Source: a virus
Lineage: Duplodnaviria > Heunggongvirae > Uroviricota > Caudoviricetes
DNA: 48,925 nt
Virus record (IMG/VR): IMGVR_UViG_3300045988_151382
Strand: one strand, 5' to 3'
Part shown: positions 34,471 through 45,702 of the stretch, one piece after another
Layout: the number at the start of each line of letters is the position of its first letter
Position numbering within the stretch: the first letter of the stretch is position 1
Position numbers and translations under genes: made by a program
Notes under the pieces: generated by a model
Database searches by the model: none
Told to the model about the DNA's origin: nothing
The model's input: the letters and a program-made list of their open reading frames with translations, nothing else

Positions 34471-34982
34471 TGATGCCCCCCGTCATTCCTGGTGCTTTTC
34501 ACCGTGCGGCTGCTTAAAAACCTGCCATCACGAGAAACAGACACATCTCGTTTACCCAACCTCATTTCACGGCGGTAACATTCAGAAAATGCCTCGTCCG
34601 GCAGCATATAAATGCGACGCTTCGCCTCCGAATCCAGAAGGGAACGGCTTGGAGTTACATATAAAAACGACTCATCAATAGGGACAAAACCACGAGCAAG
34701 AATTGCTGGCAGAATGCCAGGAAGAACGCAGAAAACAGCTCCACGATGCAGCAACATCTGGTACTCCATGACCTCCGTTATCCCCGTGACGACTGTTACG
34801 GTGTCACGTCTGTTACGGCTGGCAACCAGTCGCTGCACACGTCCAATTTTCTGCTCTACAGATAGACGTTTACTATCGTTATCAATATGATCGATAACAA
34901 ATCCTTTAATCGTTTGATCAAGGTAGTGCACCACCTGCGATTGAATCTGGTGATTATCACCAAAGAAGGCCAGAATCATCAT
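34467..34982 (-). CDS. Hypothetical protein
   Basis: 171 aa ORF in the early operon. Confidence 0.35.
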   Translation of the reverse strand: MMILAFFGDNHQIQSQVVHYLDQTIKGFVIDHIDNDSKRLSVEQKIGRVQRLVASRNRRDTVTVVTGITEVMEYQMLLHRGAVFCVLPGILPAILARGFVPIDESFLYVTPSRSLLDSEAKRRIYMLPDEAFSECYRREMRLGKRDVSVSRDGRFLSSRTVKSTRNDGGHQ

Positions 34983-35473
34983 TCCTCAAGCCTCCCAAGT
35001 GCTGAACGCCGGGCGTTGCTAATCTCCTTATGAATCAGCTCGATATCGCTGGAATCTTTATTCTTAAACTCCAGCACGGCAATCGCATCACGAACCTCTG
35101 AAACGGTTACGTGTGAGTGTTTCCAGCGAGCAATGAATCGCGGACCGCGTAGATTGCAACGCTCCGCAGGTATCCCCAGCTCAGAGAAAACCGCTTTCAG
35201 CCTTGATAAGCAGTTAACAGGGAGATTCCCTTTGATCTTGTTCTGCCGAACCGATGTGCCATCGCTACGCTGGCGCTGACGTTCGGCAAAATCTGCCGCC
35301 CATTGCTGGACATTAATCCGGCCTTCCGAATACGCCACCAGCAGCGTCAGGTTATCCGCACGAGGGAATCTCTCGAAGCGATACCAGGCACCAATCAGTG
35401 ATGACGTAAAGCCAAACTTTCTGGCAACACCAATTTGGCCTCCATTTTCATCAACCCACTCCTGAAAGGTCAT
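34979..35473 (-). CDS. Early regulator, Cro/YdaS-like HTH N-terminal domain
   Basis: 164 aa; divergent from the CI-like repressor across an operator-containing intergenic region. Confidence 0.45.
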   Translation of the reverse strand: MTFQEWVDENGGQIGVARKFGFTSSLIGAWYRFERFPRADNLTLLVAYSEGRINVQQWAADFAERQRQRSDGTSVRQNKIKGNLPVNCLSRLKAVFSELGIPAERCNLRGPRFIARWKHSHVTVSEVRDAIAVLEFKNKDSSDIELIHKEISNARRSALGRLEE

Positions 35474-35489
35474 TTAACTAACTCCAGTT

Positions 35490-35612
35490 AAACCACGATT
35501 TGTGGTATTAAAACCACAAATCGTGAGTTTTTCAATGGAAAAACAAAAAATAACCTTCTATTTGTGGTCTACCTCTCGTCTTGCCGTGTGAAAACCACTA
35601 AATGTGGTAATG
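35490..35612. promoter_or_regulatory. Immunity operator/promoter region with three ACCAC-N5-GTGGT operators plus a half-site
   Basis: ACCACGATTTGTGGT, ACCACAAATCGTGAG and ACCACTAAATGTGGT between divergent repressor and cro-like genes; TATAAAT -10-like element near 35612. Confidence 0.65.
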
Positions 35613-35645
35613 TATAAATAACCCCCCATTCACGATTGATGAGAA

Positions 35646-36308
35646 ATGAAAAGCAACGACGAGAACATCAAGAAAGAAATAGGTCTGCGCATTCAGACTC
35701 TACGGAAACAATCCGGCATGACTGCCGGAGATCTCCAGCAAGTCACTGGAATAGGCTTAAGCACCTTGCAGAACTATGAGGCCGGATTAAGACAACCATC
35801 TATACCTGCCATCAAGAAAATCGCGCACGCCCTGAAAGCATCAGCGCCTTATATCGCGTGCTTAACAGATAACCCGTTCCCACCCCAGAATACTAACGCT
35901 CCTGTTATTCCTGGGCTTGTAGCTATAAAAAATGACATAGCATCGCACGCCGGAGAAAAGCCAGTGCTGGCGATAGAACAGGAGATTCTACGAAGCAAGA
36001 ACATCAACCCATCGTCTCTGTCTGTTCTCCAGAGCAACGATGAGCTAAAGCTAATGTCACCAACAATATCCCCTGGCTCCCAAGTCCTGATTAATACAGA
36101 CGATACAGAGGTTCATGAGGGGATCTATGCCCTTGAAGACAGAAATGGCCTGGTTGTTTTGAGGCACTGTAGAGTCATACCGGGTGACAATGCTGTTATG
36201 CTGTCAACCGAAAGGGATGCTGAAATAAACACTAAGCATCTGAATAACGAGGAATTTAAGCGTTATAAAGTTCTTGGCCGCGTAGTTAGTGTTGTCAACT
36301 GGTTATGA
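35646..36308 (+). CDS. CI-like repressor (HTH_XRE N-terminus, LexA/S24-like C-terminal domain)
   Basis: 220 aa; N-terminal IGLRIQTLRKQSGMTAGDLQQVTGIGLSTLQNYEAG HTH; C-terminal beta-rich domain. Confidence 0.7.
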   Translation: MKSNDENIKKEIGLRIQTLRKQSGMTAGDLQQVTGIGLSTLQNYEAGLRQPSIPAIKKIAHALKASAPYIACLTDNPFPPQNTNAPVIPGLVAIKNDIASHAGEKPVLAIEQEILRSKNINPSSLSVLQSNDELKLMSPTISPGSQVLINTDDTEVHEGIYALEDRNGLVVLRHCRVIPGDNAVMLSTERDAEINTKHLNNEEFKRYKVLGRVVSVVNWL

Positions 36309-36400
36309 TACACAGCACGGCGAAAGCCGTGCATTTCTACGCTCAAAAAAACCACGCTTTGTGGTTTTGACAACATGAAAAAGTATAAAAGAGGCTACGC

Positions 36401-36775
36401 ATGGAATTACATACAGCCAATAAAAACGAAACTCTGATCACTGCTGGAATCGAAATCCAAGCGTTGAACATAGCGATTGAGTGTATGTTATGCCAACTCA
36501 TTGATAATGAGAAAGATATCGACTGGATAGAATCTATCCTTCATCTGGCATCAGAACAAAAAGTCTGCCTCAAAACGGCCTTACAATACGATGTGCCAGC
36601 GATATCGAAGCTGTGCCAGCCATTGATGGCATATAACAGGGCTATTATTTCTGTATGCCTCATGATTCTCGATGAAAACACCCCTCTTAGCGACCGCTCA
36701 GAAGCTGCTCTAACCCTCTCACGTAAACAGCGACAGCTAGCAAATCAACTGATATCAACGATAGCTGACCTCTGA
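36401..36775 (+). CDS. Hypothetical protein co-transcribed with repressor
   Basis: 124 aa ORF downstream of the CI-like gene. Confidence 0.4.
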   Translation: MELHTANKNETLITAGIEIQALNIAIECMLCQLIDNEKDIDWIESILHLASEQKVCLKTALQYDVPAISKLCQPLMAYNRAIISVCLMILDENTPLSDRSEAALTLSRKQRQLANQLISTIADL

Positions 36776-36784
36776 CTGCAAGCG

Positions 36785-36905
36785 GGCTAACGCCCGCTTA
36801 TATGATTATAGATTTATATAATTATATAAAACACTTTTCATCCGCCAAAAAGTTGGTTATGCTTACCTCATTCTATAAATATAGATTTATAGAATTATAT
36901 AATCA
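36785..36905 (+). promoter_or_regulatory. AT-rich repeat block upstream of the partition genes
   Basis: Two copies of the TATAGATTTATA(T/G)AATTATATAA-class motif. Confidence 0.5.
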
Positions 36906-36925
36906 AACACATGGAGTCTCGACAA

Positions 36926-37579
36926 ATGACTATATCTGTAGGTATTTTCAACGGAAAAGGCGGCGTAACCAAATCAACCATTGCTCGTGCTTTAGCAGTT
37001 GCTTATGCAAAGGCTGGCTGGAATGTATGCCTGATCGATATGGATGTGCTTAACGGAACGGTAACGCGTTGGGTACAACGCAGAATGGCCAACAATATCG
37101 AACCTGCAATCGCGGCGCAGCCGTGCGGCACGCCATCACAAGTCCAGAAAATCATCGAATCAGAAGTATACGACCTGGTTATCGTTGATGGCGGTGCCTA
37201 CGCATCTGAATCAGTACCGAAGCTCTCTGAATTTCTGGATATGGTTATTTTGCCAACCAGATTCTCTACCGATGACCTGGAAACCACCGTTAACACAGCT
37301 CACGGCATCGTTAAAAAGGGTGTACCAATCAAGAAAATTTGCATGGTGTTTTCCGGCGCGGCTGAAAACGAAGCTGACTATATTGAAGCCCAAGAGTACC
37401 TGGCTAATACGCCATACTTTGTTGTCGATAAGTACATTCCCCACAAGCCAGCTCTGAGCAAAGCTCAGGATAAAGGCTTAAGCCTCATTGAGTGCTCATA
37501 CGTTGCGCCACGCAAAAAAGCAGACGACGTTATTCAGGGGATTATCAACCAGCTTGAGGCTCTGACTACTGCCGCGTAA
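36926..37579 (+). CDS. ParA-like partition ATPase (short type)
   Basis: Deviant Walker A GKGGVTKST near the N-terminus when started at 36926 (ORF track starts 36911). Confidence 0.7.
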   Translation: MTISVGIFNGKGGVTKSTIARALAVAYAKAGWNVCLIDMDVLNGTVTRWVQRRMANNIEPAIAAQPCGTPSQVQKIIESEVYDLVIVDGGAYASESVPKLSEFLDMVILPTRFSTDDLETTVNTAHGIVKKGVPIKKICMVFSGAAENEADYIEAQEYLANTPYFVVDKYIPHKPALSKAQDKGLSLIECSYVAPRKKADDVIQGIINQLEALTTAA

Positions 37580-37622
37580 TATATAATTATAGTTTTATAG
37601 ATTTATATAAGAGAGGATACAC

Positions 37623-37871
37623 ATGGCCGCACCATCAAAACCACCAAAGAAGAACAGCAAAGGCGTACCGCCATCGATCGAACAACCGCAGGTTTTCGAC
37701 CCGACTGAAACGCCAGCCAGAACCAAATCAGGTGGGGCACAAATGGCGTTTAACGTCGACCCTGAATTTAAACGCGAGTACAAAACGTTCGCCAGCTCAA
37801 TGGATATGTCATTGAAAGAAGTGCTAACAAAATCTTTTGAGTTACTCAAGGCTCAATACAACCAGAAGTAA
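37623..37871 (+). CDS. ParG-like ribbon-helix-helix partition protein
   Basis: 82 aa; disordered basic N-terminus and C-terminal RHH-like segment; follows the ParA-like gene. Confidence 0.55.
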   Translation: MAAPSKPPKKNSKGVPPSIEQPQVFDPTETPARTKSGGAQMAFNVDPEFKREYKTFASSMDMSLKEVLTKSFELLKAQYNQK

Positions 37872-38093: not shown

Positions 38094-38115
38094 AAAAAAG
38101 GCCCCCGAAGGGGCC
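38094..38115 (-). terminator. Rho-independent terminator (minus strand)
   Basis: Stem GGCCCC/GGGGCC with 4-nt loop followed by TTTTTT on the minus strand, just downstream of small ORF 38122..38244. Confidence 0.55.
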
Positions 38116-38121
38116 TAATCG

Positions 38122-38244
38122 CTACTTGCTGCTAATGTTTATCGTCACATTCAGAGCGTTATCAGTAATCTTCCAACCCTCTCCATGTGGCGTAAACAAA
38201 GCTCCAGTAACAACGATAAAAATACACATACAGTATTTTTTCAT
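38122..38244 (-). CDS. Small hydrophobic peptide (about 40 aa)
   Basis: MKKYCMCIFIVVTGALFTPHGEGWKITDNALNVTINISSK from internal Met of ORF 38122..38304; own terminator. Confidence 0.3.
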   Translation of the reverse strand: MKKYCMCIFIVVTGALFTPHGEGWKITDNALNVTINISSK

Positions 38245-38559
38245 TGTATGGCCCTTACAGGCCGTTTCACGGCATCCCCACCGACGAAAACAACGCGAGA
38301 GCAAGCACGGCTGCTTGTGCTTGCATGTACGGCAACGGAGAATCCTCCCCTAAAGTCGGTGCCCGGGTGCGAATCGGCGGGAAGGTCCACAGGTATTTTA
38401 CGATTATTTTAAGATTAGTAATAGGAAAGAAATTAAACGAAAAAACTCGTTTATTTTCACAAAATCAGTAACCTACCCACAATCTGTGAGTTTGCAGGCA
38501 CAACAAGAACCACAATTTTTTGAAGCATAATAGTGGACTATTATTACCTTTTGGGTAAA

Positions 38560-38840
38560 ATTAACTTGCTGCTTGTGCTTGCGTGGTTGTTTATACAACA
38601 ACGTAATGCTGAAAGGACCGCGAATCCGATCAGCACGAAAGAACCGTCCTCAATAGGGCGGTTTTTTTGTTTCTGCCTACCAATAAACCCACGCTATGTG
38701 GTTGTCTCTGTTAAAATCCCGCCGTATTGACATGAATGCGCCATTGGTGGACACTTTCCGAGCCGTAGCAAAATCTACGGTCGGGATTGGAACCCCGTAG
38801 ACACAATGGCGCATACCGCGTTAGCGGTTTTTTTATGCGT
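38560..38840 (+). ncRNA. Candidate regulatory RNA region upstream of the antirepressor operon; two intrinsic terminators
   Basis: Terminators at about 38644..38668 (ACCGTCCT/AGGGCGGT stem then T7) and 38815..38834 (ACCGC/GCGGT stem then T7); no ORF; repeated GATTGGAACC element. Confidence 0.45.
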
Positions 38841-39000
38841 AAAGCACTGCTACACCCAAATTATGGTGGGGCGTGCGGGGGAGTCGTAAGACTCGCCGGT
38901 TCGTCATTGTGTCCGGTAGTTCCAACCCTGCACGTCTCACCACCCAATGATTGGAACCTGACGGTGGTGAGTATCCTTAACCTTTAAGGGAATCATCACA

Positions 39001-39192
39001 ATGACAAACCTACCCCATGACTATTACGTCAACCTCGTAAAGATCCTTCTCAAGAAAGCCTCATACGCCGATAAATTCCGCCTGGCTGAAATCATCGAGC
39101 GCGAAGCTATGCGCATCGCCAGCAACGATAACGCTGTTTCTGTCGCAAAAATCTCCCTCGTAACCAAAGTAGTTATGGGAGGTGCAAAATGA
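39001..39192 (+). CDS. Small protein translationally coupled to antirepressor
   Basis: 63 aa ORF whose stop overlaps the ant ATG (ATGA). Confidence 0.4.
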   Translation: MTNLPHDYYVNLVKILLKKASYADKFRLAEIIEREAMRIASNDNAVSVAKISLVTKVVMGGAK

Positions 39193-40457
39193 AAACGCTT
39201 CCGACCGTTAACACCCTACAGCCTATCCTGCATAACCAAATCCCTGTCATTACTACCGAGTTACTGGCACAGCTTTACGGCGTATCTCCTGTACGCATTC
39301 GACAAAATCATCATGAGAATAAGGAACGCTTCATTGAAGGTAAGCACTACTTCAAAATTGAAGGTAACGAACTTCGAGAGTTAAAGCACAAAGTGACTCA
39401 AGATAATGATGTGAAGAACAAAAACTCTTTAAGAGATTCAGTTAATGACGCCCCCTCTAAAAGAGAGAGCGACGAGCACAGAGTAGTTTTAAACTACTCT
39501 GTTAACCACAAGGTAACTAAAAGTCACTCTGTGAAAATCGCCCGTAACGTTCGCTCCCTCATTCTCTGGACAGAACGCGGGGCTGCACGTCACGCTAAAA
39601 TGCTCGAAACCGATCAGGCATGGGATGTATTCGAACGGCTGGAAGACTGCTACTTCAACCAGAACGCGCAAACGGCCGCGACCGTAACCGTCTCACCAAA
39701 CAATGCTCGTGAGGTTGTCGATACGCTCAACGCTAAACCAATGTATTACGTTAAGGTGTGCAACAACGAGCCACTCACAACCTCAGCCGATGTTGCCCAA
39801 GCATTCAGCACCACAAACAATTCCATCGTTATGGCCATCGATGCGTTACGCATTCCTCGCACGGCTGCGGCGCGTCACTTCTTTAAAGAACAACGACCGC
39901 TGGAAGGAAGCGACCGCGAAATAACAATCTATCGCATGACAAAAGACGGATTTACCTTGCTCATGGAAAGTATCGACGGTCCAGGCGTGAAGGATATCAA
40001 GCTGGCCTACATTGAAGCCTTTAACGCTATCAGCAGCGTGTTAAAGGCAGAATACGAGCGAATGCTATACAACCGACTGTATCAGGAAACAAAGATTATC
40101 CGAACGGCAACAGAACATCATCGGCTATTAACGGAACCAAACTACCGCAAGACACTAATCAAAGAGTTTGACAAGGCGACGGAGAAAACTAAAGCGGCAC
40201 TAAATCTACCAACAATGACTAAAGATGATGTGATATCAGCCTTACTTCTTGATCTGCTCAGAAACGCCAGAGCACTTATCAGTTTTGACGAAAACCTGAA
40301 TCCTCAGCTCAAGCTACTACCACCGACAGGCAAAGTAGTCGACCAAGCAGATCACAACAGCATACTCAGCGTACTGGATGCAAACCTGCCAGCCAGGACA
40401 CTACAGGATCTGATAAAAACATGTGCTGATAAGCTGGCACAGAAAAGCAGACCATAA
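39189..40457 (+). CDS. Antirepressor (ORF6N/KilA-N-type N-terminal domain plus Ant-like C-terminal domain)
   Basis: 422 aa; N-terminal IPVITTELLAQLYGVSPVRIRQNHHENKERFIEGKHYFKIEG resembles ORF6N/Bro-N-type domains. Confidence 0.6.
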   Translation: MKTLPTVNTLQPILHNQIPVITTELLAQLYGVSPVRIRQNHHENKERFIEGKHYFKIEGNELRELKHKVTQDNDVKNKNSLRDSVNDAPSKRESDEHRVVLNYSVNHKVTKSHSVKIARNVRSLILWTERGAARHAKMLETDQAWDVFERLEDCYFNQNAQTAATVTVSPNNAREVVDTLNAKPMYYVKVCNNEPLTTSADVAQAFSTTNNSIVMAIDALRIPRTAAARHFFKEQRPLEGSDREITIYRMTKDGFTLLMESIDGPGVKDIKLAYIEAFNAISSVLKAEYERMLYNRLYQETKIIRTATEHHRLLTEPNYRKTLIKEFDKATEKTKAALNLPTMTKDDVISALLLDLLRNARALISFDENLNPQLKLLPPTGKVVDQADHNSILSVLDANLPARTLQDLIKTCADKLAQKSRP

Positions 40458-44255: not shown

Positions 44256-45104
44256 TTAATGTTGGAGTGATTTCCAGGTCTTTCTTAGCCTGTTATAACG
44301 CTGCTCAACGAGGGATCGTAAATATGCAAGGTCAGCACCTGGATACATGCCATCAGCAAATTCCTGGCTAACCTCTCTAGTGATTTGATGACGAAGTTCG
44401 GCCTCTCCCTTTTCCCGGACAAGACGCGCAGCTCTCTCCGCTGCTTTCTGTTTTGCCTTTATCTCTCTGGCCGTCTTCCTCTGGCGCCATACATTCTCCA
44501 TCTGCTCCTGAATAACAATACGCTTATAATCAGCCTCCGTTATCGCTTTTTTAAGCCGTTCGCTATTCTTCGCATTGAAGTAATTAAGTTTCTGGCTAAC
44601 CGCACGTCTCCATGCTTGTTCAGTAATACCAACGGTTTCCAGCAGTTGATCACGAATCTCTATTTTCGCTGGCCAATACTGTTTATTCACCCGATCCCAG
44701 CGACGTTCATAATCAATAAAACCTAACGCTTTCAGTTGCGACAACGCCCTTGTACAGCGCGTTATAGACTTGTTCCCAGCTTCGGATACGGTAGACAGGC
44801 CGCAAAAATCAGCCAACGCCTCAGCACTAGCCAGAACCCGCTTAGAAATGATGTTTACATGGTGCAAAATCGCAGCGATCACAGCATTAATCGCCCGACG
44901 ACGATGCTCGTTTATCCGGCGCTTCCGCCCTGACGGTTGATTAACGTAGAACGCAACCTCACACGTAAGATCACGACCATTAATGCGCTGTAAAGCATCA
45001 GATAACACCAGCGGCAGCTTGTGCGTATGGTGCTTTGGAGGCTGGAACTCCGGCGACAAATTACAAACGTAAGCGGAACGTAGAGACGGCATTGGTCTAT
45101 CCAT
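44256..45104 (-). CDS. repA: Replication initiator RepA, IncFII RepA1-like
   Basis: Segment CGLSTVSEAGNKSITRCTRALSQLKALGFIDYE resembles recalled IncFII RepA1 block; start uncertain (ORF open to 45236, internal ATG at 45104). Confidence 0.65.
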   Translation of the reverse strand: MDRPMPSLRSAYVCNLSPEFQPPKHHTHKLPLVLSDALQRINGRDLTCEVAFYVNQPSGRKRRINEHRRRAINAVIAAILHHVNIISKRVLASAEALADFCGLSTVSEAGNKSITRCTRALSQLKALGFIDYERRWDRVNKQYWPAKIEIRDQLLETVGITEQAWRRAVSQKLNYFNAKNSERLKKAITEADYKRIVIQEQMENVWRQRKTAREIKAKQKAAERAARLVREKGEAELRHQITREVSQEFADGMYPGADLAYLRSLVEQRYNRLRKTWKSLQH

Positions 45105-45136
45105 ATGTTCGCTCTTGCGTCCACGGAAAACCAACG

Positions 45137-45229
45137 TATAATGGGAGTTGTCGAGGCGCCCATGGATTGTTGTTGTTGGTTTTCCGTGGATGTCGCAAGA
45201 AGCCCGCAGATTTATCTGCGGGCTTTTTG
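45137..45229 (+). ncRNA. CopA-like antisense RNA candidate opposite the repA leader
   Basis: TTGCGT-N16-TATAAT promoter, 15-bp inverted repeat CCACGGAAAACCAAC/GTTGGTTTTCCGTGG, then terminator GCCCGCAGA-TTTA-TCTGCGGGC-TTTTT. Confidence 0.5.
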
Positions 45230-45702
45230 TTTCCATATCTGGTCAGTTTCCAACCAGACACCCACAATCATAACCACGTTACGTGGTTTTAAGAGAACTC
45301 TACCACAACACTTTCGGTCATGCACGAAGTCTCTCACTGATCGAACGATAATCCACCAGTAAAAGGATCTAAATTGGATCTCGTTTTGCGAGCATCATAC
45401 TACTGGCCTAACTCCAGTCAATGATTCCCAGCCAGAAACCTGCGGTAAACTCATCGTTCAGCAATATGCTGTCCGGCTTCAAAGATAAGGTGACATCATC
45501 CCTTAACAGCGCGGCCAGTTCAGTTAAAGGGCTGTTCTGATTTAATGCTGGCCACTCATACCTGGTAATAAGTGGTCAGTCTTAACACTCACCATTTGAT
45601 TGCACCCGTGTTGACGATTTGTTACTGGATATCAGACACGCTGGATAGCCAGTAGAAACATACCATTAAAATTATTACAATAATTGGTCACATGATTATC
45701 TT

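What the first reader, a model, noticed from the sequence alone, without database searches (positions are those of the whole stretch)
36401..36775. Unknown gene co-transcribed with the CI-like repressor (candidate exclusion function)
The 124-aa ORF follows the repressor with a short gap and ends at a stem-loop, in the position where prophages commonly place superinfection-exclusion or abortive-infection genes expressed in the lysogen (rex and sieB analogs). No motif recognised.
Basis: inference. Interest (0 to 1): 0.35.

Follow-up and report, generated by a model that had tools for sequence, protein, structure and literature searches.

The report
Repressor-gated orphan gene beside phage-plasmid cI
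The 124-codon ORF is a real, conserved gene for a small acidic helical protein. It sits behind the repressor gene in every member of a family of E. coli-type phage-plasmids, but a terminator and a repressor-binding site separate the two genes, so it looks more like a repressor-controlled part of the lysis/lysogeny switch than a freely co-expressed exclusion gene.

Summary
The ORF (36401-36775, +, 124 aa) is real. It has a conserved Shine-Dalgarno sequence, dN/dS of about 0.3, and a confident four-helix-bundle model (pLDDT 90.9). A conserved hairpin follows it at 36780-36799.

The window is a ~49-kb myovirus phage-plasmid of the E. coli ATCC 25922 plasmid / Yersinia phage vB_YpM_41 type. The protein family is tiny: about 35 clusters among 5.8 billion proteins, all Enterobacterales, with no Pfam, PADLOC or PDB relatives.

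In 15 of 15 independent lineages, down to 18% identity, the gene sits between the CI-like repressor gene and parA. The 92-bp "short gap" is not empty. In every lineage it holds an intrinsic-terminator hairpin and then a palindrome identical to the repressor operators (ACCAC-N5-GTGGT). The same palindrome also precedes repA and the c4-ant immunity module.

Simple co-transcription is therefore doubtful. Expression is probably attenuated and gated by the repressor.

The protein is soluble and acidic (pI 4.2-5.0). It is a core gene, not cargo, and it diverges in step with the repressor's C-terminal domain while parA stays 89-96% identical.

My best guess, at low confidence, is a repressor-linked modulator of the genetic switch. 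An exclusion or abortive-infection function is not excluded, but nothing here supports it.

The parts
36401..36775 (+). ORF124: 124-aa soluble acidic protein (pI 4.8, net charge -6), predicted up-down four-helix bundle. Member of phrog_7632 (unknown function).
   Evidence: ORF. phrog_7632 E=1.8e-83. Homologue alignments. dN/dS 0.27-0.34. AF2 pLDDT 90.9, helices 2-36, 40-61, 66-90, 96-123. pI and hydropathy.
36390..36394 (+). Shine-Dalgarno sequence AGAGG, 6 nt before the ATG. The block GAGAGGC-N5-ATG is conserved in the Enterobacteriaceae clade.
36315..36338 (+). T1: hairpin GCACGGC-GAAA-GCCGTGC plus tail AUUUCU, directly after the repressor stop codon. It is an intrinsic terminator with a U-tract of 5-8 in 14 of 15 related lineages; the tract is degenerate in this E. 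coli lineage.
   Evidence: -15.0 kcal/mol, z=-4.65. Searches show the hairpin in 15/15 lineages, variable loops, and an A-U to G-C compensatory change in L014.
36350..36366 (.). Operator-type palindrome AACCAC-GCTTT-GTGGTT (perfect 17-mer), 36-50 bp upstream of the ORF124 ATG. It has the same half-sites as the operators between the divergent cI and early-lytic promoters.
   Evidence: 8 matches against 0.84 expected, 0/100 shuffles; one of only two zero-mismatch 17-mers. Half-sites are invariant and the central 5 bp are free in 9 Enterobacteriaceae-clade lineages. One or two operator-like sites occupy the same place in the Serratia clade.
36780..36799 (+). T2: hairpin AAGCGGGC-TAAC-GCCCGCTT after the ORF124 stop codon. 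It separates ORF124 from the par promoter region.
   Evidence: -14.9 kcal/mol. Conserved with variable loops in 13/15 lineages.
35646..36308 (+). CI-like repressor, 220 aa: N-terminal HTH_3 domain plus a diverged C-terminal domain with no recognisable S24 peptidase signature.
   Evidence: Sequences read. Domain identities.
35491..35609 (.). Main operator cluster between the leftward early promoter and the cI promoter. Sites at 35492-35506, 35513-35527 (degenerate) and 35594-35608.
   Evidence: The leftward promoter TTGAAA-17-TTTAAT scores at the 100th percentile.
36926..37871 (+). Downstream neighbour (context): type Ib partition operon. ParA is at 36926-37579 and an 82-aa ParG-like protein at 37623-37871. 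AT-rich repeats at about 36800-36910 precede the operon.
   Evidence: A par promoter candidate scores at the 93rd percentile. ParA stays 89-96% identical where ORF124 is 36-60% identical.
45272..45288 (.). Second perfect operator 17-mer, AACCAC-GTTAC-GTGGTT. It lies 37-51 bp upstream of the repA start (repA is 44256-45236, minus strand) and abuts a TATGAT -10 hexamer.
   Evidence: repA annotation.
38688..38702 (.). Operator-like site (1 mismatch) upstream of the c4/isrK-icd-ant immunity module, followed by an extended -10 element TGTTAAAAT. The site is conserved in relatives.

Best explanation
ORF124 encodes a soluble, acidic four-helix-bundle protein. It is a fixed, lineage-specific component of the immunity (cI) module of a family of ~45-50-kb Enterobacterales myovirus phage-plasmids.

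Shown: it is an insulated single-gene unit, ordered terminator T1, repressor operator, Shine-Dalgarno sequence, ORF, terminator T2.

Inferred: transcripts reach it either as the fraction of cI-promoter transcripts that read through T1, or from a weak non-consensus promoter overlapped by the operator. Either way, repressor bound at the operator limits its expression. The protein would then be scarce in a stable lysogen and rise when repressor occupancy falls.

Most likely function (inferred, low confidence): it acts by protein-protein contact on the switch itself. It would be a non-DNA-binding modulator (inactivator or co-factor) of the CI-like repressor. That repressor appears non-autocleavable, and it also seems to control repA and the c4-ant module. 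On this reading ORF124 is not a cargo exclusion gene.
For: Anatomy (shown):
- The same order, 164-aa gene <- operators -> cI -> T1 -> operator(s) -> ORF124 homologue -> T2 -> parA -> parG-like, holds in 15/15 independent lineages. Protein identities run from 97% to 18%.
- The operator half-sites are invariant while the 5-bp centre varies.
- Identical sites precede repA and the c4-ant module, each next to a plausible -10 element.
- No promoter above background lies in the gap (4th-86th percentile in 15 lineages, positions not conserved). PR scores at the 100th, immI at the 96th and par at the 93rd percentile.

Module membership:
- Against relatives, ParA is 89-96% and the ParG-like protein 80-94% identical.
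- cI is only 60-65% identical: N-terminal HTH 78-83%, C-terminal domain 50-61%. ORF124 is 36-60% identical.
- The mosaic boundary therefore falls at T2.
- dN/dS is 0.27-0.34 for ORF124, against 0.09-0.11 for cI and 0.01-0.02 for ParA in the pairs where dS is not saturated.

Protein properties:
- pI is 4.2-5.0 and net charge -6 to -12 in all clades. There is no conserved hydrophobic segment.
- The fold is a four-helix bundle with no DNA-binding motif.

Repressor:
- No Peptidase_S24 hit in Pfam or in a PDB profile search.
- The motif positions read (E/N)LM instead of DSM.
- A P1-type c4 RNA plus an ORF6N/Rha antirepressor is present, so induction by protein antagonists is the expected mode.

Precedent: plasmid-like phages carry small orphan proteins, some next to par, that inactivate their own cI without proteolysis (PMC10432266).
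Against: - There is no direct evidence of any interaction with the repressor. Parallel divergence of ORF124 and the cI C-terminal domain can be explained by shared ancestry or recombination of one module.
- The element already has a candidate antirepressor (ORF6N/Rha, 39189-40457) under c4 RNA control, so a second repressor antagonist is not needed.
- There is no similarity to known repressor modulators. hhalign against P1 Coi gives probability 0.3%.
- The operator could be a distal looping site for the repressor that has nothing to do with ORF124 expression.
- The PWM scan cannot exclude a weak or activator-dependent promoter. The presumed cI and repA promoters also score at background (51st and 63rd percentile).
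- In this particular lineage the T1 U-tract is degenerate (AUUUCU), so read-through, and hence expression in lysogens, may be substantial.
Confidence: 0.4

Rival explanations
1. ORF124 is a lysogen-expressed superinfection-exclusion or abortive-infection gene. It is transcribed with cI, like lambda rexAB or HK022 nun, and protects the lysogen from other phages.
For: It sits on the same strand directly downstream of the repressor gene. No autonomous promoter is detectable, so cI-promoter read-through is the only evident transcript source. The T1 U-tract is weakened in this lineage. It is the fastest-evolving gene of the module, with dN/dS about 0.3, as is often seen for conflict genes. Orphan status is common for defence genes.
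Against: A terminator and an operator lie between cI and the gene in 15/15 lineages. It is a universal, position-locked core gene across about 80% sequence divergence, whereas exclusion morons are typically sporadic. It has no transmembrane segment or signal peptide, unlike RexB, SieA/B, Imm or Cor-type exclusion proteins. It has no enzymatic or sensor domain. PADLOC hits are single-member and non-significant (E=0.0084-0.021).
Confidence: 0.2
2. ORF124 is a repressor-controlled early gene aimed at the host. It could be an acidic, possibly DNA-mimicking, inhibitor of a host DNA-binding protein or defence system, or another host-takeover factor. It would be made on infection or induction, when the operator is free.
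For: An operator lies directly upstream, as for repA and the immI module. The protein is consistently very acidic and forms a compact helical bundle. It evolves fast under purifying selection. It is insulated as its own unit by T1 and T2.
Against: No promoter is recognisable next to the operator. No structural match to known DNA mimics or anti-restriction proteins appears among the top Foldseek hits; all are generic four-helix bundles with E>=0.027. The position inside the immunity module, on the cI strand, is unusual for host-takeover genes, which here would be expected in the leftward early operon.
Confidence: 0.2
3. ORF124 is a plasmid-maintenance accessory. It would be a third component or regulator of the adjacent type Ib ParA/ParG-like partition system, or a factor in RepA copy-number control.
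For: It is always immediately upstream of parA. The element depends on plasmid maintenance: RepA, ParA and a RelE toxin-antitoxin pair are present.
Against: T2 and a separate par promoter with AT-rich repeat arrays lie between ORF124 and parA. Divergence is uncoupled: ParA and the ParG-like protein are 80-96% identical where ORF124 is 36-60%. From established knowledge, type Ib systems (ParF/ParG type) work with two proteins plus a centromere.
Confidence: 0.1

Closest known systems
Lambda rexA/rexB (and HK022 nun): exclusion genes downstream of cI
   Same: The gene sits on the repressor strand immediately promoter-distal to the repressor gene, inside the immunity region.
   Different: From established knowledge, rexAB is part of the PRM transcript with no intervening terminator or operator, RexB is a membrane protein, and rex is not conserved among lambdoid phages. 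Here a conserved terminator and operator intervene, the protein is soluble, and the gene is universal in the lineage. There is no sequence or fold similarity.
Phage P1 immC accessory gene coi (C1 inactivator)
   Same: Both are small non-DNA-binding proteins encoded next to the primary repressor gene of a phage-plasmid, with a repressor operator governing expression (P1 annotation). Both elements also carry a c4 antisense RNA-ant secondary immunity module.
   Different: coi lies upstream of c1 and is 69 aa. ORF124 lies downstream of cI and is 124 aa. There is no detectable homology (hhalign probability 0.3%). The repressors are unrelated in type: P1 C1 against an Xre-HTH CI-like protein. Repressor binding by ORF124 is untested.
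TF-smORF antirepressor modules of plasmid-like phages (Silpe et al. 2023, PMC10432266), including VP882 Qtip
   Same: These are orphan proteins without predictable domains, specific to their own phage, sometimes located next to the par locus. They inactivate the cognate cI non-proteolytically.
   Different: Those proteins are about 52-60 aa and are paired with a divergently transcribed activator. ORF124 is 124 aa, has no partner transcription factor, and is instead preceded by the repressor's own operator. Its function is untested.
phrog_7632 (PHROGs v4, unknown function)
   Same: Full-length match, E=1.8e-83, 124/124 profile positions. This is the same protein family.
   Different: The family carries no functional annotation, so membership explains nothing.

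Membership tests
phrog_7632 (unknown function) | Significant full-length match to the family profile | tested here: met
   E=1.8e-83, residues 1-124 on profile positions 1-124 of 124.
rex/sieB-type lysogen-expressed exclusion genes | Part of the repressor maintenance transcript, with no terminator between cI and the gene | tested here: not met
   A hairpin plus U-tract terminator follows cI in 15/15 lineages, and an operator follows it. Read-through remains possible.
rex/sieB-type lysogen-expressed exclusion genes | Membrane-associated component (RexB, SieB and SieA are membrane proteins) | tested here: not met
   The maximum 19-residue Kyte-Doolittle mean is 0.8-1.8 at non-conserved positions. 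The protein is acidic and soluble, and the AF2 model is a compact four-helix bundle.
rex/sieB-type lysogen-expressed exclusion genes | Sequence or profile similarity to known exclusion or defence proteins | tested here: not met
   PADLOC gives only NucC at E=0.021 and PDC-S57 at E=0.0084, each in 1 of 12 members. There are no Pfam or NCBIfam hits.
rex/sieB-type lysogen-expressed exclusion genes | Protection of the lysogen against heterologous phages | not testable with these tools
   Needs phage challenge of strains with and without ORF124.
Phage morons (autonomous accessory transcription units) | Own promoter upstream and terminator downstream | tested here: inconclusive
   The terminator T2 is present. 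No promoter above background lies upstream.
Phage morons (autonomous accessory transcription units) | Sporadic presence among otherwise related genomes | tested here: not met
   The gene is present at the same position in 15/15 lineages. It is in 61 of the 63 plasmid records of this lineage by tblastn, and the 2 Serratia records carry a distant homologue.
P1 Coi-like repressor inactivators | Homology to Coi | tested here: not met
   hhalign probability 0.3%, E=0.23.
P1 Coi-like repressor inactivators | Expression governed by the primary repressor's operator | tested here: inconclusive
   A perfect operator-type palindrome lies 36-50 bp upstream of the ATG and is conserved. Binding and regulation were not measured.
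P1 Coi-like repressor inactivators | Direct binding and inactivation of the repressor | not testable with these tools
Needs two-hybrid, pull-down or reporter assays.
TF-smORF antirepressor modules (PMC10432266) | Small ORF paired with a divergently transcribed activator gene | tested here: not met
   The neighbours are cI (same strand, upstream) and parA (same strand, downstream). There is no divergent transcription factor.
Type Ib partition systems (ParA plus small ParG-like CBP plus centromere) | Co-transcription and co-evolution with parA/parG | tested here: not met
   The T2 hairpin and a separate promoter region intervene. ParA is 89-96% identical where ORF124 is 36-60%.

The most novel reading that the evidence does not exclude
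ORF124 founds a new family of repressor-gated switch proteins. An acidic four-helix bundle, possibly a DNA mimic for the HTH domain or a ligand of the C-terminal domain, binds the non-cleavable CI-like repressor. Because its own synthesis is blocked by repressor at the upstream operator, it forms a feedback loop. That loop would sharpen commitment to lysis, or alternatively stabilise lysogeny. It would also co-ordinate immunity with RepA-dependent plasmid replication across this phage-plasmid family.
Probability: 0.25. Interest if true: 0.55.

Novelty: new variant of a known kind. Interest (0 to 1): 0.3.

Why it matters
Phage-plasmids of this ~48-kb type occur in about 1.3% of complete E. coli genomes (71 of 5426). 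One of these is the universal quality-control strain ATCC 25922. Related virions were isolated on Yersinia pestis. Their lysis/lysogeny switch has not, to my knowledge, been dissected.

A strictly conserved orphan gene sits inside that switch, with a conserved terminator-operator gate. This is a concrete and cheap experimental handle: one deletion, one reporter fusion and one EMSA in a strain every laboratory owns.

If the protein modulates the repressor, it adds a new protein family and a new circuit layout to the known antirepressor and co-repressor repertoire. If it turns out to be a single-protein defence, it would be an unusually small and conserved one. If neither, it remains an ordinary conserved hypothetical phage protein.

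Tried and rejected
- Sequence homology. Pfam, NCBIfam, PHROGs and PADLOC on the protein and on 12 family members gave only phrog_7632 'unknown function'. Three rounds of search in 5.8 billion proteins and one exhaustive profile search of 1.84 billion representatives converged on about 35 clusters, none annotated. A PDB profile search gave only a designed helical repeat at E=0.0027.\n- Fold. Foldseek against PDB and BFVD gave only generic or designed four-helix bundles, chemoreceptor 4HB and HPt/FAT-like bundles, with E>=0.027. Nothing rose above background and nothing was positionally conserved. By-eye candidates, such as TTGACA at 36367 with an 11-nt spacer to TATAAA, or TAnnnn hexamers 6-19 nt after the operator, lack proper spacing or the -7 T.\n- Rfam found nothing in the cI-ORF124 or ORF124-parA gaps.\n- Literature. 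The pSLy3 group turned out to be SSU5-related (~100 kb), not this lineage. The vB_YpM_HQ103 paper concerns a 32-kb P2-like phage. Papers citing CP009073 use it only as a reference genome. I found no paper on this gene.\n- A spurious ORF was rejected on dN/dS, conservation of the frame and the AF2 confidence.

Full report
WHAT THE WINDOW IS

The window is a nearly complete ~49-kb temperate myovirus that lives as a plasmid. The region 35400-37000 is 98% identical to the Yersinia phages vB_YpM_39/41/44, which are 49-kb circular genomes isolated on Y. pestis EV76.

The ORF's protein is 96-100% identical in 56 plasmid records of about 46-52 kb, and 90-95% identical in two more. Nearly all come from Escherichia, including the 48.5-kb plasmid of E. 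coli ATCC 25922.

The RefSeq annotation of that plasmid shows tail, baseplate, capsid, terminase and holin/lysis genes, together with RepA, ParA and a RelE-type toxin-antitoxin pair.

The locus is found in 71 of 5426 complete E. coli genomes, and 72 of the 73 places are on plasmids.

THE OBSERVATION

The ORF at 36401-36775 (+) exists. It starts with ATG and encodes 124 aa. AGAGG lies 6 nt upstream of the ATG.

Upstream on the same strand lies a 220-aa repressor-like gene at 35646-36308. It matches HTH_3 at E=4.6e-11 and phrog_4 'transcriptional repressor' over residues 4-219.

After the ORF's stop codon comes the hairpin AAGCGGGC-TAAC-GCCCGCTT at 36780-36799. Its predicted energy is -14.9 kcal/mol, and none of 200 shuffles fold as well.

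The ORF codes for protein:
- Homologues from 97% down to 18% identity align over their full length.
- Pairwise dN/dS is 0.27-0.34.
- AlphaFold2 with only eight sequences gives a confident up-down four-helix bundle. Mean pLDDT is 90.9, pTM is 0.84, and the helices span 2-36, 40-61, 66-90 and 96-123.

The gap (36309-36400) holds two conserved elements.

The first is a terminator, T1. Directly after the repressor stop codon lies the hairpin GCACGGC-GAAA-GCCGTGC at 36315-36332 (-15.0 kcal/mol, z=-4.65).
- I collected 15 lineages from Escherichia, Salmonella, Citrobacter, Yokenella, Serratia and metagenomes. The hairpin is present in all 15, with energies of -10.7 to -16.8 kcal/mol.
- The loops vary, and there is a compensatory A-U to G-C change in L014.
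- In 14 of the 15 lineages a run of 5-8 U follows, which makes this a canonical intrinsic terminator.
- Only the window's own E. coli lineage has a weakened tail, AUUUCU.

The second is an operator. Thirteen bases after the T1 tail lies AACCAC-GCTTT-GTGGTT (36350-36366).
- The core ACCAC-N5-GTGGT occurs 8 times in the window at one mismatch or fewer, against 0.84 expected.
- Two of those eight matches (35492, 35594), plus a degenerate third copy at 35513, form the cluster between the divergent early-lytic and cI promoters.
- The only other zero-mismatch 17-mer lies 37-51 bp upstream of the repA start codon, abutting a TATGAT hexamer.
- A one-mismatch copy precedes the c4-ant module and is followed by an extended -10 element, TGTTAAAAT.
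- In nine Enterobacteriaceae-clade relatives the site upstream of the ORF keeps invariant half-sites while the central 5 bp change freely.
- In the Serratia clade the operator consensus has drifted along with the repressor's HTH domain (47% identity). There, one or two copies of the local operator motif occupy the same position.

I infer that these palindromes are the binding sites of the CI-like repressor. Binding itself was not tested.

The gene is therefore an insulated cistron: T1, operator, Shine-Dalgarno sequence, ORF, T2.

WHERE ITS TRANSCRIPTS COME FROM

I could not find a promoter in the gap. The consensus scan found none on the + strand there.

A PWM scan of the gap in 15 lineages gave best scores between the 4th and 86th percentile of random 95-nt windows, at positions that are not conserved. 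For comparison, the leftward early promoter scored at the 100th percentile, the immI promoter at the 96th and the par promoter at the 93rd.

The presumed cI and repA promoters also score at background (51st and 63rd percentile). A weak or activator-dependent promoter next to the operator therefore cannot be excluded.

Two routes remain: read-through of T1 from the cI promoter, or a weak promoter that the operator overlaps. In both, repressor bound at 36350-36366 stands in the way. This is the reverse of the simple 'co-expressed in the lysogen' picture, but it is an inference from anatomy.

HOW CONSERVED AND HOW RESTRICTED THE GENE IS

The family is tiny and converges quickly:
- 7 representatives in an exhaustive profile search of 1.84 billion.
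- All come from Enterobacterales, and none is annotated.

Every contig long enough to judge shows the same order: a 161-179-aa gene leftward, then operators, cI, the ORF124 homologue, a 214-218-aa ParA and a 77-89-aa ParG-like protein.

The repressor is found by tblastn in 65 plasmid records.
- 61 also carry ORF124 by tblastn.
- Two Serratia records carry a homologue that only profile methods detect.
- Two Vibrio records belong to a different phage type. A Vibrio phage of that type, PhiPS02, has unrelated genes downstream of cI.

The gene is thus a core gene of the lineage, not cargo.

WHICH MODULE IT BELONGS TO

Identities against the Enterobacteriaceae-clade relatives:
- ParA: 89-96%
- ParG-like protein: 80-94%
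- Leftward 164-aa protein: 73-76%
- cI: 60-65%
- ORF124: 36-60%

Within cI, the HTH domain is 78-83% identical and the C-terminal domain only 50-61%.

dN/dS values are 0.27-0.34 for ORF124, 0.09-0.11 for cI, 0.02-0.04 for the 164-aa protein and 0.01-0.02 for ParA.

The mosaic boundary therefore lies at T2. ORF124 travels and diverges with the repressor, above all with its C-terminal domain, and not with the partition genes.

WHAT THE PROTEIN LOOKS LIKE

In all clades the protein is acidic (pI 4.2-5.0, net charge -6 to -12). It has no conserved hydrophobic stretch long enough for a membrane span.

Foldseek against PDB and BFVD returns only generic or designed four-helix bundles. The best E-values are 0.036 and 0.027. 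Profile-against-PDB sequence search gives nothing meaningful.

No Pfam or PADLOC family is hit by more than one of 12 members, and none significantly.

It is therefore unlikely to bind DNA itself, to be an enzyme or to sit in the membrane. Protein-protein binding is the most economical reading, and this is an inference.

THE REGULATORY SETTING

The repressor has no Peptidase_S24 match in Pfam. In a profile search of PDB sequences, only its HTH domain matches.

Read by eye, the position of the S24 'DSM' nucleophile motif is (E/N)LM, and the usual catalytic Lys position is Leu or Arg. The repressor is therefore probably not autocleavable. I rate this inference as moderately secure.

The element carries a P1/P7-type secondary immunity module:
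- C4 antisense RNA at 38859-38947 (77.8 bits against a gathering score of 45).
- isrK at 38762-38834, and the a1/b1 target at 38749-38801.
- A 63-aa ORF at 39001-39192.
- An ORF6N+Rha antirepressor at 39189-40457.

Induction through protein antagonists of the repressor is thus the expected mode in this phage.

Plasmid-like phages are known to encode small orphan proteins, some beside par, that inactivate their own cI without proteolysis (PMC10432266).

INTERPRETATION

The shown anatomy is solid, and I put about 0.85 confidence on it. ORF124 is a conserved, repressor-linked, terminator-bracketed, operator-preceded gene for a soluble acidic helical bundle.

Its function is inferred. I put about 0.4 on a switch component that acts on the repressor or its regulon by protein contact, with its own synthesis limited by the repressor.

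The rivals are:
- A repressor-controlled early factor aimed at the host, such as a DNA-mimic-like inhibitor (0.2).
- A plasmid-maintenance accessory (0.1).

Against the exclusion idea stand the terminator and operator, the core-gene distribution, the lack of a membrane segment and the absence of any defence-model hit. In its favour are the position, the lack of an autonomous promoter, the weakened T1 tail in this lineage and the fast evolution. None of these decides the matter.

COMPARISON WITH KNOWN SYSTEMS

The gene occupies the rex/nun position but fails the testable features of that class.

It resembles P1 coi in logic: a small protein next to the primary repressor gene, with an operator governing it, in a phage-plasmid that also has c4-ant. 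It is not homologous to coi and lies on the other side of the repressor gene.

It resembles the TF-smORF antirepressors in being an orphan, phage-specific gene near par. It is twice their size and lacks the partner activator.

It is a member of phrog_7632, which has no annotated function.

VERDICT

This is a real gene with an ordinary annotation status (conserved hypothetical). Its regulatory architecture is unusually well conserved and easily testable. Interest is modest at 0.3. It would rise to about 0.55 if the protein proves to be a new type of repressor modulator.

Noticed in passing
window 38749-38947 (+), 39001-40457 (+): A P1/P7/N15-type secondary immunity module. It comprises C4 antisense RNA (38859-38947, 77.8 bits), isrK (38762-38834, 67.7 bits) and the c4 a1/b1 target (38749-38801, below gathering score). 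A 63-aa ORF (icd-like position) and a 422-aa ORF6N+Rha antirepressor follow. An operator-like site at 38688-38702 and an extended -10 element TGTTAAAAT lie just upstream.
   Followed up: partly
window 45272-45288, repA 44256-45236 (-): A perfect repressor-operator 17-mer sits 37-51 bp upstream of the plasmid replication initiator repA and abuts a TATGAT hexamer. This suggests the prophage repressor also controls plasmid replication, as CB does in N15. The distance to the start codon is the same as for ORF124.
   Followed up: partly
window 38094-38390 (-): A strong match to the ryfA sRNA family (143 bits against a gathering score of 80) lies between the par operon and the c4 module.
   Followed up: no
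window 35646-36308 (+): The C-terminal domain of the CI-like repressor has no Peptidase_S24 signature in Pfam or in a PDB profile search. It reads (E/N)LM where S24 proteins have DSM, so it is probably non-autocleavable. Its HTH domain is 78-83% conserved among relatives, but its C-terminal domain only 50-61%.
   Followed up: partly
window 36800-36910: AT-rich repeats (TATAGATTTATATAATTATATAA and variants) flank the par promoter. They are conserved in relatives, with a different repeat unit in the Serratia clade. They are probably the centromere/operator of the type Ib ParA/ParG-like system.
   Followed up: no
window 36333-36338 versus L003, L010, L013, L017 etc.: The U-tract of the terminator after cI is degenerate (AUUUCU) only in the E. 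coli/Yersinia-phage lineage. All 14 other lineages have 5-8 U. Read-through into ORF124 may therefore be lineage-specifically higher here.
   Followed up: partly
window 34979-35473 (-): The first gene of the leftward early operon (164 aa, phrog_7452, unknown function) has only a weak N-terminal match to a repressor PHROG (E=0.0022). It occupies the Cro/CII position. Ref-family nuclease, DUF1064 and DUF3560 genes follow it.
   Followed up: no
NZ_CP035831.1 (31,203 bp), NZ_CP032086.1 (94,204 bp), one chromosomal place: The locus also occurs on an unusually short 31-kb plasmid (100% identity) and twice on a 94-kb plasmid. One of its 73 places in complete E. coli genomes is chromosomal. These are possibly deletion, co-integrate or integrated derivatives.
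   Followed up: no
P0017, P0009, CP042622.1: A few natural alleles of ORF124 are truncated or frameshifted. P0017 is a 60-aa frameshift product. P0009 is a 78-aa product on a 49.6-kb contig. CP042622.1 matches in two pieces. The gene can therefore be lost without immediate loss of the plasmid state.
   Followed up: no
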